Origin: Candidatus Omnitrophota bacterium
GTDB lineage: Bacteria; Omnitrophota; Gorgyraeia; Zapsychrales; JANLHA01
Length of the DNA stretch: 64,000 nt
NCBI GenBank assembly: GCA_023247795.1
Contig: JAHFFT010000006.1
Location: 4,664-68,663 of the forward strand
Reading direction: 5' to 3'
This document shows positions 30,033 through 51,174 of this stretch, in pieces. Position 1 is the first letter of the stretch. Each line of letters starts with the position of its first letter. The notes beneath the pieces are model-generated. The model saw only the letters and a list, made by a program, of their open reading frames with translations, was not told where the DNA came from and searched no databases. The translations under genes and the position numbers were made by a program.

Positions 30033-30821
30033 ATGAATATTGAAAACAAGAAACAAATAGCAATCATTTTGTTAGCGGTTGGATTAGGGCTCGTCGCTGC
30101 TGTTTTAACCGCCAATCATATTCAAGATAGCATCAAAACCGAAACCGCCCGACTTTCCCAGGAATTTGAAAATAAAAAAATGCGGCCGCTTGTCGAAGAG
30201 ATTAAGGATATGCAAGCGGAATTGCAAAAAGTTAAAGACCGGCCGATCCCGCAAATGCCGCAGGTGCAAGCGGCGCTGTCCCTTCCCAAATCCTCGCTGG
30301 CTTTGCGAACACCGGAAGGAAAAAGAGCTTACACGGTTAGGATTGACGCGCTCTCCGCCGTTGGCGGCATGATCAATCCCGGTGACTACGTGGACATCAT
30401 AGCACACATGGATATGCCGGATCCGGTGACGAACGAAAATGAAAAAATTTCCTCGATGATCTTTCAAAACATCCAGGTTCTGGCGGTAGGGGTCAAATTT
30501 CAGGCCCCGGGCGAATATGAAGAGCAGCAGGAAGCCAGGGCGTTGAATATCACCTTCGCGTTATCGCCGGAAGAAGCCAGTTTGCTGTCATTTATTGAGA
30601 AAAACGGCCGGATGCAGCTGGTTTTGCGTCCGCCGGAAGAAACCGCGACCGAGGTCATTCAAGCCGCGAGCTGGAGTTCTTTGGCGGATTATGTTTTTGA
30701 AAAGCAGGGGACTGAGCTGGTGGTTCCCCGTTCTAAAGCGGATATTGAACCGGTGAAATCAGACAAACAAGAAGAGGTCAAGCCCTTTATTCAGATTTTC
30801 CGTGGCGGACAAGCTTTTTAA
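30033..30821 (+). CDS. cpaB: Flp pilus assembly protein CpaB/RcpC
   Basis: N-terminal TM segment and SAF/RcpC-like C-terminus (...INPGDYVDIIAH...). Confidence 0.8.
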   Translation: MNIENKKQIAIILLAVGLGLVAAVLTANHIQDSIKTETARLSQEFENKKMRPLVEEIKDMQAELQKVKDRPIPQMPQVQAALSLPKSSLALRTPEGKRAYTVRIDALSAVGGMINPGDYVDIIAHMDMPDPVTNENEKISSMIFQNIQVLAVGVKFQAPGEYEEQQEARALNITFALSPEEASLLSFIEKNGRMQLVLRPPEETATEVIQAASWSSLADYVFEKQGTELVVPRSKADIEPVKSDKQEEVKPFIQIFRGGQAF

Positions 30822-30901
30822 AAGGTGAATAGTGAAAAGTGAATGGGGAATAGAAAAAACATTCCTTCTTCACCAATTTAACAAAAGGAAGTAAAGACTC
30901 T

Positions 30902-32830: not shown

Positions 32831-32953
32831 GATCTTTTGACGGGCGGGTGTCTTTGAATTAGATTTAAAGCGCATGGCATATCTTGAAGTGTGAAGAAGC
32901 ACAGCTAAAAATTTTCTTCCAGAAGCATTCTATTTTTTAATCATCCCCTTCTT

Positions 32954-35116
32954 ATGGAATCAAGAACGATCACGGTTTTCAGCAATAAAGGCGGCGTTGG
33001 CAAGACCTTTATTGCGGTTAATCTCGCGACCGCCCTTGCCGCCACCGGCAAGCGGGTTCTGCTTTTGGATTTGGATTTTCAGGCCTACCACGATATGTCA
33101 AGGATGCTGAACTTGGTTCCCCGCCAATCTTTGGCCAATCTCATCTCGGAAATCGAATCCATGGAAGATCCCGAGACGATCACCAAATTTACAATCACGC
33201 ACGACAGCGGCTTGGATTTTTTGCCGGCGGTTGTTCATACCAAACAAATCGGACACATCACCGCGAGCAATATCAAACCGTTTTTTAAGAAGGCCAGGCA
33301 GATTTATGATTACATCATTGTCGACGCTGGCAAGGCCTTCAGCGAGATTCTGCTCACGGTCCTCGATCATTCCAATTTGATCCTTTTGGTCGCGACCCCC
33401 GACATCTTAGCAGTCTATCAAATCAAGTCGTGCTTGGAGTTGTTAACCAGTCTGCATTTCCCTTTGAAGATCGTTAAAGTGATTCTTAATCGCTCGGAGA
33501 GCCGTGGTGGTGTCGCCTGGCAAGAGGTGCGTTCAGCGCTTTCCTGTGAGATTTTTGGTCAGATCCCGTCGGACGGGAAGGCCGTTGGCATGGCGCTCAA
33601 TCGTGGCGTTCCAGTCGTAGTCGATAGTCCGAAGGCCGCTGTTTCGGAAGCGTTCAATAAAATGGCCAACGATCTTAAAAGGGATGAAATTTATGTCCAG
33701 GCCGCGGAATTGGCCAAGGTGCGGCAGTCCGAGGATTTGGACAAGTCCGTCAAATTTTGGGAAAAATTTGGGATCACTCAGCATTCGTTGGGGGGAGGGC
33801 ATGATTATTTCGCTAAGGAAGAAGATGAGATTGTTACGTTGAAGAAAAAAATCCATGAGAAGCTGGTGAACCGTTTGCACGTCGAGGATCTCAGTCCGGA
33901 GGTCTTAGGGGATCCGCACAAAGCCCAAGAGCTGAAGAACTCGGCGCAAAAGATCGTCGGGAATCTCTTGATGGAAGAAAAGGGCGGAATGATCGCCTCG
34001 CATGAAGAACGCAGCCGCATTGTTAAGGAGATTGTCGATGAAGCGCTGGGGCTGGGAGCACTTGAAGAATTTTTAGCCGATCCAGACGTGACCGACATCA
34101 TGGTGAACAGCAAAGAAGAGCTCTATATTGAAAAAAATGGCAAATTGATTTTGACCAACAAACGATTTTTATCCGATCAGCAGATGCGTTCGATTATGGA
34201 CCGGATCATCGCCCCGTTAGGCCGGCGGATTGATGAGTCAGTGCCCATGGTGGACGCCCGTCTTCCCGACGGGTCGCGGTTCAACGCGATCATCCCACCA
34301 TTGTCGTTGAACGGCCCGATGATTACGATTAGAAAATTTGGCGTTGAGCGATTGGAACTCAACGATTTGATGGAAAAATATCGCAGCTTCAGCCCGCCCA
34401 TGCAGGATTTTCTCAATGCCTGCGTGTTGGGCCGGCAGAATGTTGTGGTTTCCGGAGGGACCGGGGCGGGAAAAACGACTTTGCTCAATGTGTTGTCTTC
34501 GTTCATCCCCGATGATGAAAGGATCATCACCATTGAGGACGCGGCCGAATTGCGGCTGAAGAAACAGCATTGGGCGCGTCTGGAGGCCCGGCCGTCGAAC
34601 GTGGAAGGCCGCGGGTCGGTCTCCATCCGCGAGTTGTTTATCAATTCGCTGCGTATGCGGCCAGACCGCATCATCATTGGGGAATGCCGAGGGGCCGAGG
34701 TTTTGGATATGTTGCAGGCGATGAATACCGGCCACGATGGATCGATGACCACCTTGCACGCCAATTCAACACGGGATGTGATGGTTCGGATGAGTTCGAT
34801 GATTTTGTTGAGCGGTATCGAACTGCCGACCCACGCCATCAATCAAATGATCTCATCGGCCATTGACGTGATCGTGCACGTGGCCCGTCTCTCCGACGGG
34901 AGCCGCAAGATCACCGGCGTTACCGAAATTGTTGGAATGCTTCCGGATTATCAGTTGGACCTCAGAGACATTTTTTATTTTAAGCCTTCCGGCCGGTCCG
35001 AGGAGGGGGTGGTTTTAGGCGAATTTTTCGCGACCGGATACATCCCCAAATGCTATGACGACTTTATGACGATGGGTTTTAAGTTGGATAAGTCGATCTT
35101 CAATAAATCCACGTAA
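32954..35116 (+). CDS. fused CpaE/TadZ-like ParA/MinD ATPase plus CpaF/TadA secretion ATPase (720 aa)
   Basis: N-terminal NKGGVGKT deviant Walker A (MinD/ParA fold, about 260 aa). C-terminal VSGGTGAGKTTLLN...IITIEDAAEL...GHDGSMTTLHANS (VirB11/CpaF ATPase). Confidence 0.8.
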   Translation: MESRTITVFSNKGGVGKTFIAVNLATALAATGKRVLLLDLDFQAYHDMSRMLNLVPRQSLANLISEIESMEDPETITKFTITHDSGLDFLPAVVHTKQIGHITASNIKPFFKKARQIYDYIIVDAGKAFSEILLTVLDHSNLILLVATPDILAVYQIKSCLELLTSLHFPLKIVKVILNRSESRGGVAWQEVRSALSCEIFGQIPSDGKAVGMALNRGVPVVVDSPKAAVSEAFNKMANDLKRDEIYVQAAELAKVRQSEDLDKSVKFWEKFGITQHSLGGGHDYFAKEEDEIVTLKKKIHEKLVNRLHVEDLSPEVLGDPHKAQELKNSAQKIVGNLLMEEKGGMIASHEERSRIVKEIVDEALGLGALEEFLADPDVTDIMVNSKEELYIEKNGKLILTNKRFLSDQQMRSIMDRIIAPLGRRIDESVPMVDARLPDGSRFNAIIPPLSLNGPMITIRKFGVERLELNDLMEKYRSFSPPMQDFLNACVLGRQNVVVSGGTGAGKTTLLNVLSSFIPDDERIITIEDAAELRLKKQHWARLEARPSNVEGRGSVSIRELFINSLRMRPDRIIIGECRGAEVLDMLQAMNTGHDGSMTTLHANSTRDVMVRMSSMILLSGIELPTHAINQMISSAIDVIVHVARLSDGSRKITGVTEIVGMLPDYQLDLRDIFYFKPSGRSEEGVVLGEFFATGYIPKCYDDFMTMGFKLDKSIFNKST

Positions 35117-35935: not shown

Positions 35936-37720
35936 ATGGGAGTTATTCATAAACTCAAACAAGAAGTTGTACAGTTCATTGTCCAAAAGAAGAAGGATCT
36001 CCCGCAGGTCAGCTGTCGAAAGATGGCGGATTTTGTCCATACCGCATTTGAATTAAATCTCTCTAAGTCGGCGATTAACAACATTTTACAGAGATCGACG
36101 TTAAGTAGTCCGGTGGGCAGGCGGCCACAAGACCCCGGCCGAAAAGAATCGGTTGTTCAACAGGGTGTTAAAGCCAAATCTTTTAAAATTCCCGATCAGA
36201 AGAAAATATTAGGGGGACAGTCCCCAAAAAGGGACTGTCCCCCTCCTGGTTTTCCTCCTGTTCCCCCGCTTCAACCGTCTAAGTCTCCTCTTCCTCCGGT
36301 CGCACAGAGTCAGCGTAAATTCAGTGTGAAAAGAGCCTCTTCATTGCAGCCAAAAGAGGGACTGTCCCCTAAAGGGGACAGTCCCCCTAAGCTACCAAAG
36401 ACGCTTTATGATCATATGGGCAGCATTTTTCTAAAGGCGGCAGAATGGGAGATTTCCGACGGGCCACTTTTGGGAAAAATACTAAAGGATCATCTGCCGG
36501 CCGGATTTTCTCAGCAAGAGCTGGAGCAGGCCGGGGAAGTGCTTTTATTTTTGCAAGTATTTGGGATTAAAAGACTTGAAGATTTTATTCATTACACAAA
36601 AGACGGATTATGGGCGATTAACGGTCTAAAAACCAAAATCCCATTTTTCAAGATCAATGATTTAGCACGATTTTTGAATACCGTTTCGGGGGTAAGAGCA
36701 CAGCTGCAAATACACATTTCACAATTAGTTACAAAAGCAGCCTATATCAAGGTGGTCTTTAAAGCCGGTAATTGCTTATGGGTAGATGCCCTGGGCGCCG
36801 GGCTGAGTTCTGCGAAGAGAAAAGGGCCCAATTTTTCGTCCATCAACCAGATCACCACAACAATGATCAATCAATGGTTAATGCCGCGTGAGCCGCTGAT
36901 TCTGGGTGCTGTTCAGGATGGCCAATCGCTTTATCATTTGGCGGCAGGCTTTGCTAATGACACGAATCGAAAATTACATAAGATCATGGCTTTTGGTTAT
37001 GACGATCAAGAGATCATTGCCTTTGATTCCTTCATTGACACAAAACGATCATTTCTCGTCGGACTATGGCCGTCGCAGGAGTTTTATCAGCAACTTTTTG
37101 GATCGCAAGATTTTGTTTATAAGAAAAATTTTGAAATGACCGATGGCCATAAGCAGGTTGCCTATGATGAAATGACCGTTAAAATCAAAGATCCGGTTGG
37201 GGAGTTACATCCCATTTCGTTAAGGGCGGTGGGGTTTGAAATGCCAGGGAACCAGCCGCAAATGGGCGTTATTTTAACCAATATGAGTGATAAGGAAATG
37301 ACAGCAGCGGGACTCATCAGTGCTTATGTTCAGCGCTGGCCCTGTTTTCAAGAATCGAAATCGCTACAAAATTTTCTGCAACCCAATGTCTCGGAAGAGT
37401 ATGTGTCTCAAGATGAAAATATTTCCAACGATTTATCCGAGGCCAATGATTTGCATATTGCACTTAACTATTTGAATCGCTACGGCCAAGAGGCCTTTTT
37501 TCCATCAGCATACGGCGATTTAGACCTATCATCAATGACATCAATATTTTACAACATAGCCGGATATTTACAGTGTACCAAAGAGCTGGTAAAAGTTGAA
37601 CTGATTATGCCAAGGGAAGATTATCCTTATCAAAATGATTTGGCTCTGGCGGTCAGGAAGGTCAATGAGCGCAATATCAGCGATTTTCAGGGAAGAAAAT
37701 TATTTTTGTCATGTTTATAA
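35936..37720 (+). CDS. 594-aa transposase-like protein (N-terminal HTH; C-terminal Y-x2-R-W...E...K like the IS4/IS1634 C1 motif) carrying two in-frame REP insertions
   Basis: REP doublets at 36212-36243 and 36358-36387 are translated as ...GGQSPKRDCPPPG... and ...KEGLSPKGDSPPK.... The YVQRWPCFQESK block resembles DDE-transposase C1. The family call is tentative. Confidence 0.35.
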   Translation: MGVIHKLKQEVVQFIVQKKKDLPQVSCRKMADFVHTAFELNLSKSAINNILQRSTLSSPVGRRPQDPGRKESVVQQGVKAKSFKIPDQKKILGGQSPKRDCPPPGFPPVPPLQPSKSPLPPVAQSQRKFSVKRASSLQPKEGLSPKGDSPPKLPKTLYDHMGSIFLKAAEWEISDGPLLGKILKDHLPAGFSQQELEQAGEVLLFLQVFGIKRLEDFIHYTKDGLWAINGLKTKIPFFKINDLARFLNTVSGVRAQLQIHISQLVTKAAYIKVVFKAGNCLWVDALGAGLSSAKRKGPNFSSINQITTTMINQWLMPREPLILGAVQDGQSLYHLAAGFANDTNRKLHKIMAFGYDDQEIIAFDSFIDTKRSFLVGLWPSQEFYQQLFGSQDFVYKKNFEMTDGHKQVAYDEMTVKIKDPVGELHPISLRAVGFEMPGNQPQMGVILTNMSDKEMTAAGLISAYVQRWPCFQESKSLQNFLQPNVSEEYVSQDENISNDLSEANDLHIALNYLNRYGQEAFFPSAYGDLDLSSMTSIFYNIAGYLQCTKELVKVELIMPREDYPYQNDLALAVRKVNERNISDFQGRKLFLSCL

Positions 37721-38312
37721 TACGAATACTAATATATAACAATTCTGTAACTTGACATTTAAAATAAGAGCATGTTATACTTTAAAAGTGAAGAGGGGGG
37801 AGATCTGGCTGCTTATCAGGAGCAGGGAATGATTGTAAGTTTTTTTGAACAAATAAGATACATATTCCAGAATGGCCTCGCATTTCTTTTTTTAAGATAT
37901 CATCCTTTTGAACATCATCTCCATCCATCGCGGGCTGGAGATTTTTTATTGACTGCAAAGTCTTTCGAGAAAAGGCGTGTTGCAAGCGATCTGACCTTGC
38001 TTTTAGCAGGGATGATTCTGTGGGCCCATCCAGTGGTCTGCAGATGCCGGCTGCAAAATTTGGCCGGTAATAGAGTCCGAGAGTGAATTCTGCTTGAAGC
38101 GCGGGGATGCTTTAAGGCGGACAAGGGTTATTTGAAACGTTAGGACAGAAACATTTGAACAAAGGCGACAACAGCAAATTTTTAAAAAAATCAGGCCTTT
38201 GATCAGAGAAGTTTGGTCTTAACCGCAAATGACTTAAGAAAAGGGTTCACACCTGAAGGGATTTGTAAAGTTGTTTTAGCAACGTTAGTAGTCATTTTGA
38301 AGGAGGATAGCA

Positions 38313-38543
38313 ATGTATAAGAAAAGGAATCAAAAAAAGAAAGGGCAGAGTACGCTGGAATATATCATTTTAGTCACCGGTGTGATCGCCGTTCTTATTA
38401 TTTTTTTAAAGCCGGATACAGGTATTTTCACCCAGGCCTTCAATGGTGTTTTGGGTAGCGCCAAAGACGGCATGGTTAATATGTCAAACCGGTTATCGGG
38501 ATCTTGGCCTTCGGATCAAGTGGGTACAAAAACCGGGGGATAA
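38313..38543 (+). CDS. Flp/Tad-type prepilin A (76 aa)
   Basis: Leader MYKKRNQKKKG, then QSTLEYIILVTGVIAVLIIF (Gly at -1, Glu at +5 class-III prepilin motif). GGAGG RBS. Confidence 0.7.
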   Translation: MYKKRNQKKKGQSTLEYIILVTGVIAVLIIFLKPDTGIFTQAFNGVLGSAKDGMVNMSNRLSGSWPSDQVGTKTGG

Positions 38544-38578
38544 GATCAGCAAAGAAATTAAAAACGGAGGAACAATCC

Positions 38579-39010
38579 ATGTTTAGAAAGTTAATGAAGA
38601 ATAAGAAAGCGCAGCAGACCGCGGAGTACGCGTTGCTGATTTCGCTGGTGGTCGCGGCGGTGATCGCGATGCAGACTTACGCTCAGCGCGCGATTCAAGG
38701 ACGTATCCGCGATGCCTCGTCGTATTTGGTTGAGAAAACACCGGAACTCGGAGACATTAATCAATACGAACCTTATTATCTAAAAACCGATTATCATATT
38801 GACTCTTTTGATGAAACGACCGAGAGTCATACGAATGAAATCAAAGGCGGTAAATTCGAGTCTGACACCTACTCTGAACGCACCAGACAGAAAGATGGGT
38901 TTCAGGCTTCAGATTATAAGTCGGTTGTGACTGAAGATAGTTTTAAGCCCAGTGGAGGATCGGGCACCAGTACCGGAGGAACGCCTCCAGCTGGCGGCAC
39001 GACCCCGTAA
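38579..39010 (+). CDS. TadE-like pseudopilin B
   Basis: MFRKLMKNKKA/QQTAEYALLISLVVAAVIAM (TadE-type N-terminus). GGAGG RBS at 38565. Confidence 0.65.
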   Translation: MFRKLMKNKKAQQTAEYALLISLVVAAVIAMQTYAQRAIQGRIRDASSYLVEKTPELGDINQYEPYYLKTDYHIDSFDETTESHTNEIKGGKFESDTYSERTRQKDGFQASDYKSVVTEDSFKPSGGSGTSTGGTPPAGGTTP

Positions 39011-39073
39011 TAGAGGATGCTAAATTGATCCAATTCTCTTTGCAGAGAAATTAAATTGAGGAGGAGGCGAGAC

Positions 39074-39397
39074 ATGTTTAAATTTTTAAGGAAGATGAAA
39101 GGGCAGAGCACCCTGGAATACGCGGTTTTGATCATCATTGTCATTGGTGCTTTGTTGTCCATACAAATGTATATTAAGCGCGGCATCCAAGGTCGTCTAC
39201 GAAGTGCTGCCGACGATATCGGCGATCAGTATGATCCAGGTAACGTCAATTATCGTGTTCACACAACTGTTGTTAGTAACACGCACGATACATTTATAGA
39301 CGGGAAAACCAATTCGACCTTATTGCAGCCGGAAAAAACAATCACAACGGTCAATTCCGAGATTGTTAACGCGGAGCAGACCTTTTGGGGGAGATGA
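39074..39397 (+). CDS. prepilin-like protein C (GDQYDP family)
   Basis: MFKFLRKMKG/QSTLEYAVLIIIVIGALLSI...DDIGDQYDPGN. GAGGAGG RBS. Confidence 0.65.
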   Translation: MFKFLRKMKGQSTLEYAVLIIIVIGALLSIQMYIKRGIQGRLRSAADDIGDQYDPGNVNYRVHTTVVSNTHDTFIDGKTNSTLLQPEKTITTVNSEIVNAEQTFWGR

Positions 39398-39469
39398 TTG
39401 GATCTTCATGATACCCGCAAAATGGAGAAGCATTTTGTTAAGTTAACAAGAGGGCCCAGGAGGACAGCA

Positions 39470-39700
39470 ATGATAAAGAAAAGGAATCAAAAAAAGAAAG
39501 GGCAGAGCACGCTGGAATATATCATTTTGGTCACCGGTGTGATCGCCGTTCTTATTATTTTTTTAAAACCGAATGGAGGCATTTTTACCAAGGCCTTCGA
39601 TGGTGTTTTGAATAGCGCCAAAGACGGCATGGTTAATATGTCAAACCGGTTATCGGGATCTTGGCCTTCGGATCAAGTGGGTACAAAAACCGGGGGATAA
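39470..39700 (+). CDS. prepilin A' (paralog of 38313)
   Basis: MIKKRNQKKKGQSTLEYIILVTGVIAVLIIFL..., nearly identical to A. Confidence 0.7.
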   Translation: MIKKRNQKKKGQSTLEYIILVTGVIAVLIIFLKPNGGIFTKAFDGVLNSAKDGMVNMSNRLSGSWPSDQVGTKTGG

Positions 39701-39735
39701 GATCAGCAAAGAAATTAAAAACGGAGGAACAATCC

Positions 39736-40119
39736 ATGTTTAGAAAGTTAATGAAGAATAAGAAAGCGCAGCAGACCGCGGAGTACGCGTTGCTGATTTC
39801 GCTGGTGGTGGCAGCGGTGATCGCGATGCAGACCTACGCCCAGCGCGCGATTCAAGGACGTATCCGCGGCGCATCGGCGTGGCTGGTTTCCGCGACAAAT
39901 GAGATTGGAACAACGAACCAGTATGAACCGTATTATTTGGACACCAAATATGAAATTGACAGCTATGATAAAACCACGGAGGTTCATACGAATCAAGCCG
40001 GCACCGGCGGTAAGTTTGACACCGATACTTATTCTGAGCGCACCAGAAAAGCGGGTGGTGCCCAAGTTTCAACGTATGATATGCCTATAAAGACCGATGA
40101 AACACAGTGGAAAAATTAA
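39736..40119 (+). CDS. TadE-like pseudopilin B' (paralog of 38579)
   Basis: N-terminal 60 aa identical to B. The C-terminal half has diverged. Confidence 0.65.
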   Translation: MFRKLMKNKKAQQTAEYALLISLVVAAVIAMQTYAQRAIQGRIRGASAWLVSATNEIGTTNQYEPYYLDTKYEIDSYDKTTEVHTNQAGTGGKFDTDTYSERTRKAGGAQVSTYDMPIKTDETQWKN

Positions 40120-40207
40120 TAACCGCTGAGGGTGTTCAGATTTCAAGCGGAGGTTAAGAGGATTAAAATCTCTTTTTAGAGAAATTCAATTAAGGAGGAG
40201 GCAAGAC

Positions 40208-40540
40208 ATGTTTAAATTTTTAAGGAGGATGAAAGGGCAAAGCACCCTGGAATACGCGGTATTGATTATCATTGTCATCGGGGCCTTGCTGTCGATACAA
40301 ATGTATATCAAGCGTGGTATCCAAGGCCGGTTGCGCAGTGCGGCCGACGACATCGGCGATCAGTACGATCCAGGTAACACCAATTATGTTAGAACAACCG
40401 AGGTTGCCAGCAATACGAGGGATACTTTTAAAGCCGGCATTACGAATTCTGTTTTACTAGATGATGAGACGACCACGACAATTGTGAATAGTACAATTAT
40501 CAATGCCGAGCAGACCTTTTGGGGAAATGAGAAAAAGTAG
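40208..40540 (+). CDS. prepilin-like protein C' (paralog of 39074)
   Basis: MFKFLRRMKGQSTLEYAVLIIIVIGALLSIQMYIKRGIQGRLRSAADDIGDQYDPGN. C-terminus diverged. Confidence 0.65.
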   Translation: MFKFLRRMKGQSTLEYAVLIIIVIGALLSIQMYIKRGIQGRLRSAADDIGDQYDPGNTNYVRTTEVASNTRDTFKAGITNSVLLDDETTTTIVNSTIINAEQTFWGNEKK

Positions 40541-40595
40541 TAAAATTATGGAATTCTCCGAAATAGCGGCGTTGCATTTTTTTATGGGAGGATGA

Positions 40596-40757
40596 ATGTT
40601 GGGTTGGCGTAAAAGAGGAAAGACCGGTCAGAATTTGGTCGAATACGCGATTGTTATCGCGGTGGTGGCGTCGGCGATGTACGCGATGAGCACCTATGTC
40701 TTTCGTTCTGTTCAATCAACCCAGCAGATGATCCAGCGGGAGTTTTCCCGTCAATAA
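40596..40757 (+). CDS. flp: canonical Flp pilin (53 aa)
   Basis: Manual translation: MLGWRKRGKTG/QNLVEYAIVIAVVASAMYAMSTYVFRS... Classic Flp motif G-x-x-x-V-E-Y-A-I-V. Under 60 aa, so absent from the ORF track. Confidence 0.7.
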   Translation: MLGWRKRGKTGQNLVEYAIVIAVVASAMYAMSTYVFRSVQSTQQMIQREFSRQ

Positions 40758-40837
40758 ATTGAGTATGTCATTAAGACATTTTGGGGTATCAAAGGCAATG
40801 CCTCAAAATGAAAAAGGCAAATAAGTAAAATAAGCAT

Positions 40838-40888
40838 GGCTTACTTTAAAGAAGATTTCTCATCTTGAAGTAAGCCTTGTTTTTTCTT
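40838..40888 (+). terminator. Rho-independent terminator after flp
   Basis: 8-bp stem GGCTTACT/AGTAAGCC, then TTGTTTTTTCTT. Confidence 0.55.
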
Positions 40889-40896
40889 AAACGTGT

Positions 40897-40960
40897 TCCC
40901 CGCTCCCTAGCCCTCCCCGCAGAGGAAAGGGAAAAAGATCTTAGCTCAATGGGGGAGGGA
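40897..40960. repeat. palindromic repeat family B copy
   Basis: CCCCGCTCCCTAGCCCTCCCCGC...AATGGGGGAGGGAAG matches the copy at 24918-24974. Confidence 0.5.
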
Positions 40961-40982
40961 AGTTGTGATGAGAGGTTGAGGC

Positions 40983-41402
40983 ATGTTTAAAAATTTACGA
41001 GACAATAAGGGCCAAGGCATCGCGGTGCAATATGTGCTGGTCTTTTTTATCGTGATTGCCTTTGTTTCGTCGATGTCGGTTTATGTCCGTCGAGTTTTGC
41101 AAAGCCGTATCCAGGGTGCCGGCGATTTTTTAGTGAAGCAAGTGTATGCCATCCATTCCAACGCGGAAATGAATTTTTTAGGGAACCTGGTCCGAGAATA
41201 CGAACCGTATTATGTTCAGTCGGACAGTCGACGGTTTACCAACAGCGATACGTTAAGACGGGAAGATGTTTTTGCCCCAGCCACGAATGTCAGTGTTTAT
41301 CGGATGGACATGGACGATAGCACAGCCGTGAAATCCGTATCGAAGCAGAAGCGGCCGATCGATGCCCTGAAAGATCAGGGCCTTCAGCCGCCGCACCTGT
41401 AA
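40983..41402 (+). CDS. TadE-like pseudopilin paralog (139 aa)
   Basis: ...NKGQGIAVQYVLVFFIVIAFV... hydrophobic prepilin-like N-terminus, with the Glu at +5 replaced by Gln. Confidence 0.5.
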   Translation: MFKNLRDNKGQGIAVQYVLVFFIVIAFVSSMSVYVRRVLQSRIQGAGDFLVKQVYAIHSNAEMNFLGNLVREYEPYYVQSDSRRFTNSDTLRREDVFAPATNVSVYRMDMDDSTAVKSVSKQKRPIDALKDQGLQPPHL

Positions 41403-41417
41403 GAGCAGAGGAGTAAG

Positions 41418-41753
41418 ATGAGATTTGGTCATCGAGAAAACGCCCAGACATTTTTGGAATACTCGCTTTTGATCGGGATTGTGGTGGCGGTTTTGATGGC
41501 CATGTCGCCGATGTTGCGGCGATCGACGCAGGCGATGATTAAAGTGGTTTCCGATCAGGTCGGGGACCAGGTCAATTCCGAACAAGAAGGCGGTGACCAG
41601 GGGCATTTGGATTCCGTGAATACCATAACACGGGTGGATCGGCAGATCAGCACCATTGATCGTTTGGGGACGAGAAGGATCGATTATGATAAGGATTCGA
41701 CATTTACTGATTCGAGCGTGATTGTGAACCAAGGATTTCGGGAAACGAATTGA
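41418..41753 (+). CDS. prepilin-like protein (111 aa)
   Basis: ...ENA/QTFLEYSLLIGIVVAVLMAM.... Confidence 0.55.
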   Translation: MRFGHRENAQTFLEYSLLIGIVVAVLMAMSPMLRRSTQAMIKVVSDQVGDQVNSEQEGGDQGHLDSVNTITRVDRQISTIDRLGTRRIDYDKDSTFTDSSVIVNQGFRETN

Positions 41754-41808
41754 TTGTGAATTGAATAGTGAATTAGAGAAGAGTGAAATAAGGAGCGAGG
41801 TGTCAAAA

Positions 41809-42120
41809 ATGAGGCAAAGAGGACAAAGCACGTTAGAGTATATGATTCTGCTGATTTTGATCATCGCCGCGTTCATCGCGATCGGTAACTATTTTGGCCG
41901 CGGGGTGTTGGGGCGCTGGAAGGCCGCGGTGGATGATTTGGGGGATCAATATGATCCGCGGTTAACCAACGGCAAAGTGACGGTCAGTTTGTCGGCCAAT
42001 ATGGAAAGCCGGGTTGTTTCCGTTCCTGATGAGACCCGTGAAGGCGTATGGACGATTCGTACTGATCAATCCAACTCTCTTGAGCGGCGTTCGGGATTCA
42101 CCAGCGTCGGAGGGTTTTAA
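41809..42120 (+). CDS. prepilin-like protein (GDQYDP family)
   Basis: MRQRG/QSTLEYMILLILIIAAFIAI...DDLGDQYDPRLTN. AAGGAG RBS. Confidence 0.6.
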   Translation: MRQRGQSTLEYMILLILIIAAFIAIGNYFGRGVLGRWKAAVDDLGDQYDPRLTNGKVTVSLSANMESRVVSVPDETREGVWTIRTDQSNSLERRSGFTSVGGF

Positions 42121-42125
42121 GCTTT

Positions 42126-43553
42126 ATGAGTCATGGTTTTTATACAAAATGGTTCAAATTCCCGCAGGCCGCTCAGGCCGCTTCGGAGTTGGCGATTTTT
42201 GGCGCTATTTTGATCTTTGTCATAGGGCTGATTGTCCGCACCGGATTCAATACCAGCCAGAATTTAAATCAGCAGCTCAGGGCGTTTCGATTCGCGCTTA
42301 CAGAGTCCTATAAAACGGGAGAAGGGCAGTATACCGGCCGCCGCCCGTCTCGGGCACGCAATGCCGCTTCTATTCTTCTGATTGAAGATCGTTTGTCCAT
42401 CAACGGTGCTGATCAATTGGGAGAACGTGATCGGATTCCTTATATGACAAGTGCTTCCGGAACTTTCAGCCGAAATTTGTTGATGCCGCTGGCTTTTGAA
42501 AGCACCCAACACTTACCTATATTTGATTTGATTGTGAATGGCCAGCGGTTTCCTTTCATTACGTCAGCATTTAAGGAATATGATTTAATGACGATGTATC
42601 GGGATAACGAAGCGAAGCATTGTGATCATGATCCTCATCCGAGAGGGACCTGCTGGGACAAGAATTGTAATGGCGGACAAGGATGCGTTATTTTTTATAC
42701 AAAGATTGTTAGGGCGAATGCTATCGGAAAGTTTAATTCCGGCTGTGAGAAATGCTTTGATTTGGATTTGGATGGAAAGGTGGATGTCCCGTCGGAATTA
42801 CGAACCAATTTTCATTGGCAGTGGCAGACGGTCGAGGGGTTGAAAGAAAATATTGATCCCGCGAATGATCTGAACTCGAGCATGGACGTTGATGGTGATT
42901 TAAAGGAAGAGAGCGTGTTAGAGGTTGTGGGAGTTCCTCCGCCGGCGTCCGATCCTAATGCGACATTAGCGGCCTATCAAGCAGAAGTCGCCAAGCACGC
43001 GAATGAAATTCAGTCGCTCAAGGTGGTTGATTTTCAGGAGGGGGACGTCAATTTGGGGTTTGATGATCAGGACGCGGCGCTACGCGAGGAACAGGGACTG
43101 TCAAAGCGTAAATTTGGATTGGATGATGATGTTGCCATTTACGCGATGACAAAAGAGGGAACCATGCTGCGAGTGGAACAGGGAAAATTATTTGATCCGT
43201 TAACTTCTCAATTCATCCGCAACACCAATCGACAGGACCACGCGGAATTGATCCAACGCATTTTTTATATTGATAACGATACGGGACGCTTTTGCACATC
43301 CGACGGTCAACCTTTGCAGTGGAAATACGCCGATGGGAGTCCTAGCGAATGGGCCAAGAAAAATGCCGTCGCAGGCTTAGATAATCCAGTGGAGGCCTGC
43401 AATAACTGTTTTTCTCAGGATAATATCGAGCTTACTTGTATGGATCAAGGGAAGGACCGTCCTCACGAAGGCCCGATCATTTTTATCCGCAGCCGAATCA
43501 AGGACCTGCGCGGCCGACGCTGGGTAACGAGGTTGGAGGAGTTTGATAAGTGA
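42126..43553 (+). CDS. 475-aa protein with pilin-like N-terminus and Cys-rich extracellular region
   Basis: ...AAQAASELAIFGAILIFVIGLIV..., then ...HCDHDPHPRGTCWDKNCNGGQGC.... Confidence 0.45.
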   Translation: MSHGFYTKWFKFPQAAQAASELAIFGAILIFVIGLIVRTGFNTSQNLNQQLRAFRFALTESYKTGEGQYTGRRPSRARNAASILLIEDRLSINGADQLGERDRIPYMTSASGTFSRNLLMPLAFESTQHLPIFDLIVNGQRFPFITSAFKEYDLMTMYRDNEAKHCDHDPHPRGTCWDKNCNGGQGCVIFYTKIVRANAIGKFNSGCEKCFDLDLDGKVDVPSELRTNFHWQWQTVEGLKENIDPANDLNSSMDVDGDLKEESVLEVVGVPPPASDPNATLAAYQAEVAKHANEIQSLKVVDFQEGDVNLGFDDQDAALREEQGLSKRKFGLDDDVAIYAMTKEGTMLRVEQGKLFDPLTSQFIRNTNRQDHAELIQRIFYIDNDTGRFCTSDGQPLQWKYADGSPSEWAKKNAVAGLDNPVEACNNCFSQDNIELTCMDQGKDRPHEGPIIFIRSRIKDLRGRRWVTRLEEFDK

Positions 43554-43855
43554 AAGGTGAAGAGAGAGTAGTGAATAAAAAAATTCAAGCCCAGGTGACC
43601 ATCGAGTTTACTTTCAGCATGATGATCACGTTATTGTTGATCGTCGGGATGATTAAGGTCTTCACCTGGACCGGACGGGATTTGGCCGACCGTATTCACG
43701 CCCATGAAGAGATTTTAACTAAGGATTTAGGGTGTACCAGCTCTTCTTGTCCTATGAAGCAGATTAAGCCCACGTTTTATACGGCGACGGACATCGATGC
43801 CGCCTACCCCGCGAATTTTTTCAATTTTGACATGAAAGGGCTTGAGAAGGATTAA
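43550..43855 (+). CDS. TadE-like pseudopilin (101 aa)
   Basis: ...KIQAQVTIEFTFSMMITLLLIV.... Start overlaps the upstream stop by 4 nt. Confidence 0.55.
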   Translation: MKGEERVVNKKIQAQVTIEFTFSMMITLLLIVGMIKVFTWTGRDLADRIHAHEEILTKDLGCTSSSCPMKQIKPTFYTATDIDAAYPANFFNFDMKGLEKD

Positions 43856-43869
43856 ACGAGCAGCCATAG

Positions 43870-46800
43870 GTGGTTTTTGTGATCAATGAATTGAATAAAA
43901 AAATAATGCAGGTAAAAAGGTTTTTTCAAATCCGAAATCCGATTTCTGAAAAACACCGTTCAGAAAAAGGGCAGATCGCGGTGATTTTGATTTTGGTCGC
44001 CGCGGTCGGTCTGATTTTTTACGCGGTCGTGTTCAATTTTAACCGCATTTCGCAAATCAAAACGTTAACCATGCAGGCGGCAAATGCCTCGGCAGCTCAG
44101 ATGGTTTCTTCGATGGCGAGTTATGGAGAGTCGGTTTGGCAGGTGTATTTGAGAGGCAAGCTCGATGGGAAGAAACCAGGCTATTGTAAGCATGATAATG
44201 TTTTTAAGATGATCATCAAATTCATCATTATCCTCATCATTGTTATTATTGCCGTTATTACGGGACAATGGTGGGCTATATACGCAATCATAGCATTGGC
44301 ATATAGTTTTGTGGCGATTGTCTTGCAAGTTACGGTGGTCCAACCCGGGCTAACCGATGCCTGGAATAAAATGATCGCCAATTTATCGATCGCCGATCAA
44401 TTTGTTGAGATGGGGGTGCAAGCGGGCATTCAGGGTGTCGTTACGGACAATGTGCAAATTCCCGATTTGATTGACAGCGACTCTGATGGAATTTTTGGCG
44501 ACCTGCAGAATCCTTCTGATAAAAAAAGCGCGCCGGACTACATCTCACGTTTTGGATATAACTATACCCAGCGGTTGCGGCGGATTCCTATAGTTGATAG
44601 TTCCGCTGTCAATTATTTTATCAATGGAATAAAAGATGTGGGCGGTTTGAAGGATTTATTAGTGAAGACCGGCGATGTCAATGACTGGGGAGTTCATGCG
44701 GCTGGAACTGGGAGCGCCCTATCGGCATGCTGTTTGCCCGATGCTGCAGAAAATCCGGACCGTCCGGCCTGTTGCGATCTTCCCATCGACAATGATGATT
44801 TCTGCGGTGACAAAGATAAAGATAACTATGATGAAGAGTGTTCGTTGGGCGTTCGTCCGGAGGGGTGTCCTTCGAACTCGAAAGCCATCTGCGCAAAGGA
44901 AAGTATTTATTCTACCGTCACTAATCAGAACCCTCAGGGTCTATATAATGGTCGATATGATTACCCCTATGCCTACGAAGCCTTTCCGGAAAACACGAAT
45001 AATGCGGCATTGTCTTTCCGTGCGCAGTTAGGCCGAGATGATGAACACCATTTGTATCGACGAGATCCCAATAATCCCAATGGGCGGCAGCTGTTGATTT
45101 CGCCGATTCCCCCTGAGGGAACGCCAGGGCGGTTTTTTGTTGAAGACGCCAGCGGGGTTTTTCCATTTTTTTATAAGATTGGCCAATGGGGCGTTGATTT
45201 GAATGAAATCGATTATAGTAAAGTCACAACCGAGGATGTCCGTTGCAACTTGTGCGATGCAGGTAAGATGCTAGGCGCTCCTTTAAACTCTTCTACGAAT
45301 CCAGGCGTTTGTACGAATCTTCCCAGCGAGGTTTCACCGCAGTTGAGTCTGCCGCTTAATCCGACGCAAGACGGAGGTTTTCGACCCAGTGGCGGCTGGT
45401 GTGTGGATAGTGTCAATACCGGGAAGGCAGGAGATCCGCCGCAGGTCTTGGATATTGTGCCGTCGATCAATGAGTTATTTACGCCAACTAATCCAAATCC
45501 AGATTCAATACCTCCCGAAGAAGAATGCGCGGTTGGCCCAGGCAACGCCGGAGGCTGGAAACCAGGTGCGGACCGGTTTTGTTCTACTGTATATCCTTAT
45601 TCGTCCGCCTGTTTTAAGCATGGAGGAAAGGATCAGTGTTTGGTTGATTCAGAAATGGGACCGATAGGGTTTGACTGCCTGTGCGGCGAGGGGGCGGCGG
45701 CTTCCGTATCTGCGAATCTATGGCCTGATGACGCGTTGGACGAAATCGTTTATGGGCTGCCTTATTTCATTGAATACGCCCAAGGGTTGGTCAATGTTTC
45801 TACGATACAATTGAATCAGACCCTTGTCGAGTGGTATGAACAGACCGCGGATTGGATTGAGCCGGGGTGTGAGCGCACGGAAAATCCTAGCTGTCCACCG
45901 GGGTGCGAAGCAAATTCTAGTTGTCCACCGGGATGTGAAAAGAAGACCAGCTGTCCGGGGAGTTTTACAAAGAAAGGTCGTGATGGCCCGTTGAAAACCG
46001 TGAGCGGGAAGATGGTTGCGGGATCGGTATTGGATAAAAATGAGAAAGGGGAAAATGAGAAAATCGTCGGTGGGGGCGGATATCTTTATGGTTGGGTACG
46101 GGACTTGGCCAATTTTCGTAACCCAATTTATCATTGGTTGTATCCCACACAGGAAAAGGCCTATGTTGCCGACTCTTGCACGATCAAGTCCGCGGCTGAT
46201 GATAAAGCCGCTTGGTGTGTTCCGCCGTCACAGAATTCGAAGAACAACTTTGATGTGAAGGAATGTCCCGGCGTGACCGCTGAAGAGGCTGAAACTTTCG
46301 ACGCGAATAAAAATGGGGTTCGCGGTGATGTCGAAGACGTGGTGGCTTGCCTGCGGTTTAACGCCGGCGATGCCGCTAAGGGAAAGTTGAGCAATGAAGC
46401 GAAGTTCACGGCTTGTCAAACGGCTTGCTCAACGGGGACGGATGTCACGACCCAGTGCGCGTATCTGCCGCGATCGGTGGTACCCGGGTTCATCAATAGT
46501 TATGAAAATTATTTTGACGGGCAGCAGGTGAAGGGCAATCCTTGCGCCGACACCAATTTTAAAACATTATTAGATAAAAGTGTTGAAGAATCCCGCAACC
46601 AAGATGTCAAATTGCAGAAGCGTTTGAAATTTTTAGACGGTCGTTTGAAAGAGGCCCAAAACATCGCCGGGGAGACCGGGGTTTTTACCGCAGCGATCAA
46701 CAAACTTGAGGCCTTTTTAAACGCGGGGACCAAGTTTGCTGCCCCTACGGTTAAACCGGTACAAGACCTAGGAAACGGATTAGTAGCATCGATCGTTGAG

Positions 46801-47667: not shown

Positions 47668-47715
47668 TAGATCAATCCGCCCCTTCAATGGGGGAGGTCA
47701 GGTGGGGGTTTTTCA

Positions 47716-48102: not shown

Positions 48103-48120
48103 GTTTTATCAAGGAGACCT

Positions 48121-48975: not shown

Positions 48976-49064
48976 TGTGACCGTGACTTACGGAGCGAAA
49001 GCGAACGTAAGTCACTGGCCGGATTAACCCCGGCTGATTTTGGCGGGGTGGATAATAAAAGGAT

Positions 49065-51156: not shown

Positions 51157-51174
51157 AATTAACCGAGTATGACT

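What the first reader, a model, noticed from the sequence alone, without database searches (positions are those of the whole stretch)
38306..40545. Tandemly duplicated three-gene pilin cassette with near-identical 5' halves and diverged 3' halves
Genes A-B-C (38313-39397) recur as A'-B'-C' (39470-40540). The DNA encoding leader peptides, prepilin-peptidase motifs and hydrophobic N-terminal helices is almost identical between copies, including RBS and spacers. The C-terminal, presumably surface-exposed, halves of B/B' and C/C' differ strongly at the protein level. That pattern fits gene conversion homogenising the N-termini with diversifying selection, or cassette shuffling, on the exposed parts. 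It would give an antigenic or host-range variation mechanism for Tad pilus subunits.
Basis: seen in the sequence. Interest (0 to 1): 0.75.

Follow-up and report, generated by a model that had tools for sequence, protein, structure and literature searches.

The report
Duplicated three-pilin module, Omnitrophota Tad locus
A real tandem duplication of a three-gene pilin module sits inside the conserved Tad-like pilus operon of an uncultured Omnitrophota bacterium; part of it has been recently copy-corrected between the two copies, but it is a variant of known multi-pilin biology, not a new variation mechanism.

Summary
The duplication is real. A-B-C (38313-39397) recurs as A'-B'-C' (39470-40540), and an independent assembly spans the C->A' junction. 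The window is an Omnitrophota chromosome near oriC. One block (38302-38711: A, the A-B spacer, B codons 1-44) is 95% identical and contains a 197-nt perfect run. There the paralogs are closer to each other than to the sister-species orthologue, which indicates recent gene conversion or unequal crossover. C/C' have almost identical N-termini as proteins but differ at 34% of synonymous codons, so that similarity is purifying selection, as it is across the whole family. The 3' halves give dN/dS of about 0.2-0.3, with no sign of positive selection. Outside the converted block the copies are older than the split from the single-copy sister species. The cassette is a hyper-divergent island relative to its flanks. 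The same module is duplicated in six of 80 other Omnitrophota species genomes. Closest analogue: the paralogous kilLMN "Tip" minor-pilin sets of Myxococcus. Interest is moderate to low.

The parts
37752..37781 (+). Best sigma-70-like promoter match (TTGACA-18-TATACT, 11/12, TG extension). It lies downstream of the 594-aa gene and upstream of A, and is the putative promoter of the pilin operon.
   Evidence: This is a consensus match only; function is inferred.
38302..39397 (+). Cassette copy 1: RBS plus A (38313-38543, 76 aa), B (38579-39010, 143 aa) and C (39074-39397, 107 aa).
   Evidence: A reaches the Pfam Class_IIIsignal PF04021 cut-off. The B and C families have 699 and 1136 homologues. 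Those that carry an organism name are Omnitrophota/Omnitrophica, and JGI calls some 'Flp pilus assembly pilin' or 'UPF0333'.
39398..39457 (+). Unique junction between the copies. It has no similarity to the leader upstream of A or to the C'-D spacer.
   Evidence: It is spanned by an independent 1,242-bp ENA contig.
39458..40540 (+). Cassette copy 2: RBS plus A' (39470-39700, 76 aa), B' (39736-40119, 127 aa) and C' (40208-40540, 110 aa).
   Evidence: The AlphaFold2 model of B' has a long N-terminal helix (9-59, high confidence) followed by four beta strands (moderate confidence).
38302..38711 (+). High-identity block, copy 1 side (95.1% to 39459-39868). It covers A, the A-B spacer and B codons 1-44, and is the inferred gene-conversion or unequal-crossover tract.
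38456..38652 (+). 197-nt perfect repeat, copy 1 (A 3' end, 35-nt spacer, B codons 1-24 and two bases of codon 25).
   Evidence: Independent assemblies break at its edges.
39613..39809 (+). 197-nt perfect repeat, copy 2.
38411..38455 (+). Divergence island inside the homogenised block. It holds 10 of the 15 A/A' nucleotide differences and 5 of the 6 amino-acid changes, just after the hydrophobic helix.
40596..42120 (+). Four further pilin-like genes: D (40596-40757, 53 aa, Flp-sized, conserved over its full length across the phylum), E (40983-41402, B-like, YEPYY motif), F (41418-41753) and G (41809-42120, C-like, 46-49% identity).
43550..43855 (+). H, an eleventh pilin-like gene (A-Q-V-T-I-E-F motif), lying between the 475-aa and 1265-aa conserved unknowns.
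30033..35116 (+). Tad-type machinery upstream: RcpC/CpaB (30033-30821), a secretin with a C-terminal TonB_C domain (30902-32830), and a fused ParA/TadZ-like + T2SSE/TadA ATPase (32954-35116).
35936..37720 (+). Conserved 594-aa protein of unknown function. It is present between the ATPase and the pilins in 69 of 80 related loci.
42126..49952 (+). Conserved downstream genes: a 475-aa unknown, H, a 1265-aa unknown, and two T2SSF (TadB/TadC-like) proteins (48121-48975, 49065-49952).

Best explanation
The feature is a genuine tandem duplication of a three-gene module (A-B-C) of type IV-pilin-like proteins. Each has a prepilin-type leader, a G/A|Q-x-x-x-E-Y processing motif and a hydrophobic alpha-1 helix. 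The module lies inside the phylum-wide conserved Tad-like pilus operon of an Omnitrophota bacterium. Both copies are intact, have their own ribosome-binding sites and lie in one co-directional gene array, so both are probably expressed (inferred).

Three processes explain the similarity pattern.
1. Strong purifying selection acts on the leader and alpha-1 helix. This is seen in every member of the A, B and C families and accounts for the protein-level identity of the N-termini, including all of C/C'.
2. One recent non-reciprocal exchange between the copies (gene conversion or unequal crossover) covers about 410 bp: A, the A-B spacer and the first ~44 codons of B. It left a 197-nt perfect tract.
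3. Outside that tract the divergence is old, older than the split from the nearest sequenced species, which carries a single cassette. It evolved under relaxed but still purifying selection.

The A-B-C module behaves as an evolutionary unit. It is a hyper-divergent island relative to its flanks and has been duplicated repeatedly in the phylum.

Most likely function (inferred, not shown): the two modules supply alternative sets of pilus subunits, probably minor-pilin or tip-type, that differ in their exposed C-terminal parts. They would broaden or alter what the Tad-like pilus binds, by analogy with the interchangeable KilLMN tips of Myxococcus. This would be standing paralogue diversity, not a programmed switching device.
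For: Reality of the duplication. Independent assemblies span the junction and break at the repeat edges.

Locus identity: RcpC, secretin, TadZ-TadA fusion and two T2SSF proteins. Named homologues are Omnitrophota. Gene order is conserved in 80 loci.

Purifying selection:
- The C family N-terminal 60 aa are nearly invariant across 20 homologues from different assemblies.
- C/C' codons 16-45 have dN = 0 with dS of 1.1 to saturated.
- Orthologue pairs also show low 5' synonymous divergence.

Conversion:
- Synonymous-codon differences are 9/107 in A + B1-45, against 18/53 in C1-58 (Fisher p = 1e-4) and 19/44 in B46-end (p = 2e-6).
- A/A' differ at 8% of synonymous codons, while each differs from the sister-species A at 40%. 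The flank baseline is 18.5%.
- The A-B spacer is 100% identical between copies but 71% identical to the sister.
- A and A' share a 3' tail that the sister lacks.
- The longest perfect runs in independent duplicates L027 (>=394 nt) and L059 (94 nt) cover the same A-B spacer/B 5' region.

Old divergence elsewhere: paralogue synonymous differences are 43% (B rest), 34% (C1-58) and 50% (C rest), all above the 18.5% flank baseline (p = 3e-4, 0.011, 1e-4).

Single copy in the sister: the ENA contig carrying P0002 has the same gene sizes and spacings as L037. Its C is followed by a 54-aa D-sized gene.

(B,B') are sisters: they share a derived C-terminal extension and have lost the family's terminal GL(I/V)NGI motif.

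Recurrent duplication: L027, L029, L032, L059, L061 and L064. In L027, L029 and the window, every paralogue pair that could be compared is its own best hit; in L032 and L059 most pairs are (A and B in L032, A and C in L059).

dN/dS < 1.

Functional analogy: four paralogous kilLMN minor-pilin clusters form interchangeable tips that set prey range in M. xanthus (PMC12075869). Omnitrophota Tad loci are linked to predatory or parasitic lifestyles (PMC10066038).
Against: - The low synonymous divergence of the B 5' end is not by itself proof of conversion. Orthologues between genomes show the same dip, and B1-45 against the sister is at baseline (21%). The conversion claim therefore rests mainly on A, the spacer and the perfect tract.
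- An alternative history gives the same pattern: a recent duplication, with the B 3' part and C of one copy later replaced by a foreign allele.
- No expression, processing or assembly data exist.
- No prepilin peptidase gene was found among the window ORFs scanned.
- No curated Flp or TadE family model matches.
- The AlphaFold2 model of C is unstructured beyond the helix, and the B' model finds no significant structural neighbour.
- A, B and C are small (76-143 aa) and lack the large distal domain of KilN/TadG, so the tip analogy is weak on structure.
- dS is near saturation, so the dN/dS values are rough, and site-specific positive selection was not tested.
Confidence: 0.6

Rival explanations
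1. Gene conversion repeatedly homogenises the 5' (leader/helix) half of each gene, while diversifying selection or cassette shuffling drives the exposed 3' halves. Together these would form an antigenic or host-range variation mechanism.
For: - Divergence is non-uniform and there is a clear homogenised tract.
- The cassette is hyper-divergent relative to its flanks between sister species.
- Several distinct B alleles co-occur in one metagenome on fragmented contigs.
- The module is duplicated recurrently.
Against: - The C/C' 5' halves are not homogenised at the DNA level (34% of synonymous codons differ, dS about 1).
- The tract is a single block covering the whole of A and a spacer, not the 5' halves of each gene.
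- dN/dS in the 3' halves is 0.16-0.34.
- There are no silent cassettes, shufflon-like inverted repeats or adjacent recombinase, and no strong internal promoters or convincing terminators.
- N-terminal conservation is family-wide and is also seen between genomes.
Confidence: 0.2
2. Constraint only. The whole pattern reflects an old duplication with strong purifying selection (protein level plus codon or mRNA level) on the 5' parts. No exchange between the copies occurred.
For: - Orthologue pairs in different genomes also have fewer synonymous changes in the first 45 codons of B and C. In several species pairs the pilin genes are less diverged at synonymous sites than their flanks.
- The C 5' half behaves exactly this way.
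Against: - The perfect tract includes the family-variable 3' half of A and the non-coding 35-nt spacer. These are 76% and 71% identical to the sister species but 100% identical between the copies.
- A/A' synonymous difference (8%) is below the species-split baseline (18.5%, p = 0.02), while the rest of the cassette is above it.
- A run of 197 nt has probability 5e-5 even within the conserved block.
Confidence: 0.08
3. Recent duplication plus import. The cassette duplicated recently, with its age set by A/A' (dS about 0.1). The B 3' - C segment of one copy was then replaced by homologous recombination with a divergent allele from another strain or species. Alternatively, a divergent allele was captured in tandem.
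For: - All cassette parts outside the tract are older than the flank divergence.
- The cassette's history is decoupled from the flanks in both directions in different species pairs.
- Multiple alleles co-occur in the same sample.
Against: - B and B' share a derived C-terminal extension and have both lost the canonical GL(I/V)NGI end. No other sequenced allele shows this, which argues that their 3' parts are sisters rather than one being foreign.
- C and C' are each other's best hits in the collection scanned.
- The model needs an extra event compared with conversion.
Confidence: 0.15
4. Assembly artefact. Two strain variants of a single cassette were joined in tandem, or a repeat was expanded by the assembler.
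For: - The 197-nt exact repeat exceeds usual k-mer sizes, so the phase across it (which A goes with which B) cannot be verified without reads.
- Related alleles co-occur in the sample.
Against: - The C->A' junction is unique sequence and lies inside an independent 1,242-bp contig carrying B-C-A'.
- Independent assemblies break exactly at the repeat edges, as expected for a true repeat.
- Six other Omnitrophota genomes have the same kind of duplication.
Confidence: 0.03

Closest known systems
Myxococcus xanthus Kil (Tad-like) pilus with four paralogous kilL-kilM-kilN minor-pilin clusters ('Tips') (Herrou et al. 2025, PMC12075869)
   Same: - It is a Tad-like machine in a predatory or host-dependent lineage.
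- Three adjacent pilin-like genes form a module that exists in paralogous copies.
- The paralogues keep the N-terminal helices and differ in their exposed parts.
- The sets are proposed there, and shown genetically, to be interchangeable and to set target range.
   Different: - The Kil tip clusters are dispersed in the genome, not tandem.
- KilN is a large pilin with a distal domain, whereas A, B and C are only 76-143 aa.
- Heterotrimer formation was not testable here, and no sequence homology was tested.
- No conversion tract is described there.
Tandem flp paralogues in classical Tad loci (flp-1/flp-2 of Aggregatibacter, flp1-3 of Haemophilus ducreyi, Bdellovibrio type IVb pilin sets; from general knowledge and the references cited in PMC10066038)
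   Same: - Several small pilin genes with the G/XXXXEY motif lie in a row next to Tad machinery genes.
- They have conserved leaders and helices and variable remainders.
   Different: - Here eleven pilin-like genes belong to at least seven distinct families.
- None matches the Pfam Flp model.
- A whole three-gene block, not a single flp gene, is the duplicated unit.
Haloferax volcanii adhesion pilins PilA1-6 with a conserved N terminus (Esquivel et al. 2013, recalled from memory; that paper was not read, and is known here only from reference-list term matches)
   Same: - Multiple co-expressed pilin paralogues share an essentially identical hydrophobic N-terminal domain and differ in their C-terminal parts.
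- They have class III (archaeal-type) signal peptides, the only curated model that A matches.
   Different: - It is an archaeal system.
- The paralogues are not organised as a repeated three-gene block.
- I know of no evidence there for a conversion tract.
Neisseria pilE/pilS antigenic variation and R64 PilV shufflon
   Same: The conceptual outcome is the same: a conserved pilin N-terminus combined with alternative C-terminal parts by recombination.
   Different: - The defining features are absent. There are no promoterless or 5'-truncated silent copies, since all six genes are complete.
- There are no shufflon-like inverted repeats or site-specific recombinase, and all genes are co-directional.
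Interlocus gene conversion / concerted evolution of tandem paralogues (general phenomenon)
   Same: - There is a long perfect tract including silent and non-coding sites.
- The paralogues are closer to each other than to orthologues inside the tract only.
- A divergence island persists inside the tract.
   Different: Nothing essential. This part of the finding is a textbook case.

Membership tests
Tad / Flp (type IVc) pilus system | TadA-type secretion ATPase (T2SSE) with a TadZ/CpaE ParA-like partner | tested here: met
   Gene 32954-35116 matches T2SSE (4.5e-57) and has an N-terminal AAA_31/CbiA/ParA domain, i.e. it is a fusion.
Tad / Flp (type IVc) pilus system | Two TadB/TadC platform proteins (T2SSF), an RcpA/CpaC secretin and RcpC/CpaB | tested here: met
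   T2SSF at 48121-48975 and 49065-49952. Secretin at 30902-32830 and RcpC at 30033-30821.
Tad / Flp (type IVc) pilus system | Pilins matching the Flp family model (Pfam PF04964) or TadE-type models | tested here: not met
   None of the ten pilin-like proteins hit a Flp or TadE model at E <= 1. A and A' reach the PF04021 Class_IIIsignal cut-off. NCBIfam gives nothing. JGI labels some B homologues 'Flp pilus assembly pilin'.
Tad / Flp (type IVc) pilus system | G/XXXXEY prepilin processing motif followed by a hydrophobic helix | tested here: met
   Read directly from the sequences: A KKKG|QSTLEY, C MKG|QSTLEY, D KTG|QNLVEY, G QRG|QSTLEY. B and F have A at position -1 (KKA|QQTAEY, ENA|QTFLEY). E is a variant (G|QGIAVQY).
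Tad / Flp (type IVc) pilus system | Dedicated prepilin peptidase (TadV/CpaA, Peptidase_A24) in the locus | tested here: inconclusive
   No A24 hit among the window ORFs scanned. Small ORFs and the rest of the genome were not examined.
KilLMN-type minor-pilin tip modules | Paralogous sets of three adjacent minor-pilin genes | tested here: met
   A-B-C and A'-B'-C'. The module is duplicated as a unit in six other genomes.
KilLMN-type minor-pilin tip modules | One large subunit (KilN/TadG-like) carrying a distal variable domain | tested here: not met
   A, B and C are 76, 143 and 107 aa. The B' model is a helix plus a four-stranded sheet only. The large unknowns (475 and 1265 aa) lie outside the duplicated unit.
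KilLMN-type minor-pilin tip modules | Predicted or shown heterotrimeric complex capping the filament | not testable with these tools
   Only single-chain prediction was available.
Silent-cassette pilin antigenic variation (pilE/pilS type) | Promoterless, 5'-truncated donor copies recombining into one expression locus | tested here: not met
   All six genes have a start codon, a Shine-Dalgarno sequence and a full leader. No strong promoter-like or convincing terminator-like sites separate the copies.
Shufflon / invertible pilin segments | Inverted repeats flanking alternative C-terminal segments, plus a site-specific recombinase | tested here: not met
   Only short, chance-level inverted repeats were found and all genes are co-directional. 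The nearest transposase is an IS200-like gene at 50006-50545.
Interlocus gene conversion between tandem paralogues | An identity tract longer than expected, including silent and non-coding sites | tested here: met
   A 197-nt perfect run occurred in 0/20,000 permutations and with probability 5e-5 within the block. The spacer is 100% identical.
Interlocus gene conversion between tandem paralogues | Inside the tract the paralogues are closer to each other than to orthologues; outside it they are not | tested here: met
   A/A' differ at 8% of synonymous codons, against 40% to the sister A and an 18.5% flank baseline. B rest and C differ at 34-50% between the paralogues. One caveat: B1-45 is also conserved in orthologues.

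The most novel reading that the evidence does not exclude
The A-B-C module may be the specificity-determining (tip or adhesin) unit of the Omnitrophota Tad-like pilus. On this reading the locus is a recombination-driven hypervariable island, and alleles older than the species are exchanged between lineages. The module would be repeatedly duplicated and partly re-homogenised so that new C-terminal variants remain compatible with one assembly machinery. That would amount to a modular host- or prey-range diversification system in ultra-small, host-dependent bacteria.
Probability: 0.25. Interest if true: 0.6.

Novelty: new member of a known kind. Interest (0 to 1): 0.35.

Why it matters
Omnitrophota are uncultured, mostly ultra-small bacteria suspected of predatory or parasitic lifestyles. 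Their Tad-like pilus is one of the few candidate host-contact organelles (PMC10066038). This analysis shows three things about the locus:
- It carries a conserved array of about eight uncharacterised pilin families.
- One three-gene block within it is the part that varies. It is hyper-divergent between sister species, recurrently duplicated, and partly copy-corrected.
- That block is therefore a concrete candidate for target specificity. It also gives a testable parallel to the Myxococcus 'adaptable tips'.

As a mechanism it adds nothing new in kind. Paralogous pilins with conserved N-termini, and gene conversion between tandem duplicates, are both well known.

Tried and rejected
- AlphaFold2 of C (20-sequence alignment) was confident only for the helix at residues 13-50. 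The C-terminal half had pLDDT below 50, so no fold search was run on it.
- AlphaFold2 of B' gave a helix plus a four-stranded sheet. Foldseek against the PDB found nothing better than E = 0.5.
- Profile searches of the D and C families against PDB sequences gave only sub-threshold hits. For D these were pilin N-termini (Geopilin 0.02, PilA 0.2, Caulobacter Flp 4-5). For C the two hits were unrelated proteins (an antibody heavy chain and avidin).
- Pfam and NCBIfam have no Flp or TadE model hit for any pilin.
- Rfam finds nothing in the ~520-nt leader upstream of A.
- The inverted-repeat scan found nothing shufflon-like.
- The promoter/terminator scan found no strong promoter-like or convincing terminator-like sites between the copies.
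- Tajima relative-rate tests for asymmetric evolution of the copies were not significant (A p = 0.32, B p = 0.20, C p = 0.07).
- A search for a D remnant upstream of A found nothing. It only re-detected the start of A itself.
- A literature search for gene conversion among Flp pilins returned nothing specific.
- I first read the low dS of the B 5' end as conversion. The orthologue control showed this is partly a family-wide property, so that argument was downgraded.
- I considered that the 594-aa gene upstream was an insertion. This was rejected, because it is conserved at that position in 69/80 loci.

Full report
**1. The observation**

The region holds six complete, co-directional small ORFs: A 38313-38543, B 38579-39010, C 39074-39397, A' 39470-39700, B' 39736-40119 and C' 40208-40540. 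Each has a GGAGG-type ribosome-binding site. Each also has a basic leader ending in G or A, then Q-x-x-x-E-Y and a hydrophobic helix. Direct repeats with 1157/1134-nt spacing confirm the duplication.

A global alignment of the two units gives 76.7% identity overall, but the profile is very uneven:
- A: 93.5%
- A-B spacer: 100%
- B codons 1-44: 97%
- rest of B: 55%
- B-C spacer: 76%
- C codons 1-58: 87% DNA (57/58 aa)
- rest of C: 58%

The longest perfect run is 197 nt (38456-38652 = 39613-39809). In permutations, a run that long never arose over the whole unit (0/20,000). It arose with probability 5e-5 even inside the 410-nt high-identity block. The 60-nt junction between the copies (39398-39457) is unique sequence.

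**2. Not an assembly artefact**

An independent ENA assembly (ERZ27297570) contains a 1,242-bp contig whose gene geometry equals window 38512-39753. It carries B, C and the 76-aa A', so it spans the C->A' junction. A 5,030-bp contig from the same assembly starts at 39669 and carries B' through to the 1265-aa gene.

Both contigs begin 141 nt before the end of the 197-nt repeat. The short contig also ends 141 nt into the second copy of the repeat. That is the behaviour of a k = 141 de Bruijn graph at a true exact repeat. A Logan contig (L081, SRR14366766) is 100% identical to 39780-43710. It starts exactly 30 nt before the first post-repeat difference.

What cannot be checked without reads is the phase across the repeat, that is, which A belongs with which B.

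**3. Context**

The window is a bacterial chromosome near oriC. It carries parAB, yidC, dnaA, dnaN, gyrB and gyrA, and GC skew changes sign near 9-10 kb.

The cassette sits in a Tad-type locus with these parts:
- RcpC/CpaB
- a secretin with a TonB_C tail
- a fused ParA/TadZ-like + TadA ATPase
- a conserved 594-aa unknown
- the pilin array A-B-C-A'-B'-C'-D-E-F-G
- a 475-aa unknown
- an eleventh pilin-like gene, H
- a 1265-aa unknown
- two TadB/TadC-like proteins

The C and B families have 1136 and 699 homologues. The few that carry an organism name are Candidatus Omnitrophota/Omnitrophica, and JGI labels some 'Flp pilus assembly pilin' or 'UPF0333'.

No curated Flp or TadE model matches any of the pilins. 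Only A and A' reach the cut-off of the class III signal-peptide model. The AlphaFold2 model of B' has a confident long N-terminal helix followed by a four-stranded sheet. This is the general pilin layout, but it has no significant PDB neighbour. The model of C is confident only for the helix.

**4. Comparative picture**

Eighty loci from species-representative genomes were fetched with the C family and their pilin-like ORFs were classified.
- The usual order is D-A-B-C-E-F-G, followed by the 475-aa gene and H. The ATPase, the 594-aa gene and the 475/1265-aa genes flank the array in most loci.
- In the window and its closest relative, D follows C rather than preceding A.
- The A-B-C block is duplicated in L027, L029, L032, L059, L061 and L064. 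In L027, L029 and the window, every paralogue pair that could be compared is its own best hit; in L032 and L059 most pairs are (A and B in L032, A and C in L059). This means either independent duplications or concerted evolution. L061 and L064 share an older duplication.
- Another group of loci carries one extra A-like gene after C.

A-B-C is therefore a recurrently amplified unit.

**5. Why the 5' parts are similar**

(a) *C/C'.* The first 58 residues differ at one position, yet codons 16-45 have dS of 1.1 to saturated with dN = 0. At conserved degenerate codons, 18/53 differ. That is purifying selection on the protein, not homogenisation. The same 60 residues are nearly invariant in 20 C-family homologues from different assemblies.

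(b) *A, the spacer and the B 5' end.* Only 9/107 conserved degenerate codons differ. That compares with 18/53 in C1-58 (Fisher p = 1e-4) and 19/44 in B46-end (p = 2e-6).

(c) *Control.* Orthologues in different genomes cannot convert each other. They too show fewer synonymous changes in the first 45 codons of B and C than in the rest. For L003-L004, B is 2/43 against 15/74 and C is 2/44 against 18/58. Low 5' synonymous divergence is therefore partly a family-wide property. The cause could be codon or mRNA-level constraint, or exchange between lineages. The B 5' signal alone does not prove conversion.

(d) *The decisive evidence is the sister species.* L037 (MAG nzgw298) is collinear with the window from the ATPase to the cassette. 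Identities between the window and L037 are:
- ATPase: 92.9%
- 594-aa gene: 89.4%
- leader: 91.2%
- A: 75.7%
- A-B spacer: 71%
- B1-45: 93%
- rest of B: 50%
- C1-59: 86%

Synonymous-codon differences in the flanks are 219/1186, or 18.5%. A and A' each differ from the sister's A at 39-40% (p about 3e-4) but from each other at only 8%, which is below the baseline (p = 0.02). They also share a 3' tail and spacer that the sister lacks. The A..B 5' block was therefore homogenised after the lineages separated. Independent duplicates show their longest perfect runs at the same place: at least 394 nt in L027 and 94 nt in L059.

**6. How old is the rest, and is it under positive selection?**

Paralogue synonymous differences all exceed the 18.5% flank baseline:
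- rest of B: 43% (p = 3e-4)
- C1-58: 34% (p = 0.011)
- rest of C: 50% (p = 1e-4)

The sister's B and C differ from both window copies at 45-57%. The three alleles are therefore older than the flanking genome divergence, so the cassette is a hyper-divergent island with its own history.

B and B' nevertheless share a derived C-terminal extension. Both have lost the terminal GL(I/V)NGI motif kept by the five other B-family proteins in that alignment, so they are sisters.

The ENA contig carrying P0002 has the same gene sizes and spacings as L037. It continues past the end of L037 with C followed by a 54-aa D-sized gene and a D->E-like gap. The sister lineage therefore has a single cassette. This is inferred from geometry, because no DNA was available.

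NG86 dN/dS in the 3' parts is about 0.34 for B and 0.16 for C. This is no different from orthologue pairs. Relative-rate tests are not significant. Positive selection is not demonstrated. However, dS is near saturation and site models were not run.

In the same metagenome, further L037-like B alleles sit on tiny contigs. This is consistent with strain-level diversity breaking the assembly at this locus.

**7. Mechanism**

*Shown:*
- a real tandem duplicate
- one recent exchange tract
- an old, constrained remainder
- recurrent duplication in the phylum

*Inferred:*
- Both modules are co-transcribed from a promoter-like site at 37752-37781. No strong promoter-like or convincing terminator-like sites lie between the copies.
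- Both modules supply alternative pilin subunits that differ in their exposed parts.

There is no sign of a programmed switch. There are no truncated silent copies and no shufflon-like inverted repeats. The nearest recombinase-type gene found is an IS200-like transposase about 10 kb away at 50006-50545.

The closest functional precedent is the Myxococcus Kil Tad-like pilus. Its four paralogous three-gene kilLMN clusters form interchangeable tips that set prey range (PMC12075869). Omnitrophota Tad loci have been linked to predatory or parasitic lifestyles, but in the passages of that paper I read, the pilin array and this duplication are not described (PMC10066038). The analogy is weakened by the small size of A, B and C and by the absence of a KilN-like large subunit inside the unit.

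**8. Verdict**

The non-uniform divergence and one conversion tract are real. General conversion of the N-termini, demonstrated diversifying selection and a dedicated variation mechanism are not supported.
- The feature is a new member of a known kind: paralogous pilin modules in a Tad-like system, with ordinary concerted evolution.
- The hyper-divergent-island behaviour and the recurrent duplication give the finding moderate interest for Omnitrophota biology.

Noticed in passing
window 51169-64000 (+), running off the window end: A giant ORF of at least 4,277 codons has no stop before the window end. It has an N-terminal Peptidase_C39-like domain and lies directly downstream of the Tad locus and an IS200-like gene. 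Giant ORFs next to secretion or pilus loci are reported for Omnitrophota (bioRxiv 10.64898/2026.06.07.730766).
   Followed up: partly
window 17652-17776 (+): A c-di-AMP riboswitch (Rfam RF00379, 47.4 bits, above the gathering score) lies upstream of a 121-aa ORF (17940-18305) that has no Pfam match.
   Followed up: no
window 40596-40757 versus loci L001-L080: The Flp-sized, phylum-conserved pilin D follows the A-B-C cassettes here and in the sister lineage. In most of the other loci it precedes A. No D remnant was found upstream of A.
   Followed up: partly
window 30902-32830 and 32954-35116: Two unusual fusions occur in the machinery: a secretin with a C-terminal TonB_C domain, and a single polypeptide combining a ParA/TadZ-like domain with the TadA ATPase. 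The ATPase is conserved in 62 of 80 related loci.
   Followed up: no
loci L003/L004/L008, L074/L075, L052/L053 (pilin genes versus flanks): In several closely related species pairs, the pilin genes are much less diverged at synonymous sites than the flanking ATPase and unknown genes. For L003-L004 the values are A 3% and the first 45 codons of B and C 5% each, against 38-44% in the flanks. This is the opposite of the window/L037 pair. The cause could be strong codon or mRNA constraint, or recent exchange of the cassette between species. It remains unexplained.
   Followed up: partly
window 39010 and 40119 (ends of B and B'); alignment A4: Both B copies lack the family's terminal GL(I/V)NGI motif and carry new tails. 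B ends in a Gly/Ser/Thr/Pro-rich low-complexity tail (SGGSGTSTGGTPPAGGTTP).
   Followed up: partly
L037 6001-6179 (contig end); ENA ERZ27297570 contigs of 758 and 566 bp: The sister MAG's contig ends inside C, exactly where the conserved 5' half stops. Additional L037-like A-B alleles occur on very short contigs in the same sample as the window organism. This suggests strain heterogeneity that fragments assemblies at this locus.
   Followed up: partly
window 37862-37893 versus 38332-38363 and 39489-39520: A 32-nt imperfect inverted repeat (75-78% complementary) links the putative leader to the start of the A and A' coding regions. It is low-complexity (A/T runs) and may be chance. Possible leader-coding-region pairing was not tested.
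   Followed up: no
window 50006-50545 (-): An IS200-like Y1 transposase gene lies between the TadC-like gene and the giant ORF.
   Followed up: no
window 8888-16835: The chromosomal origin region is here (dnaA, dnaN, gyrB, gyrA; parAB and yidC lie upstream on the minus strand). GC skew changes sign near 9-10 kb. The Tad locus lies about 20-40 kb from it on the leading strand. Velamenicoccus archaeovorus has a similar origin-proximal Tad locus (12-30 kb) according to PMC10066038.
   Followed up: no
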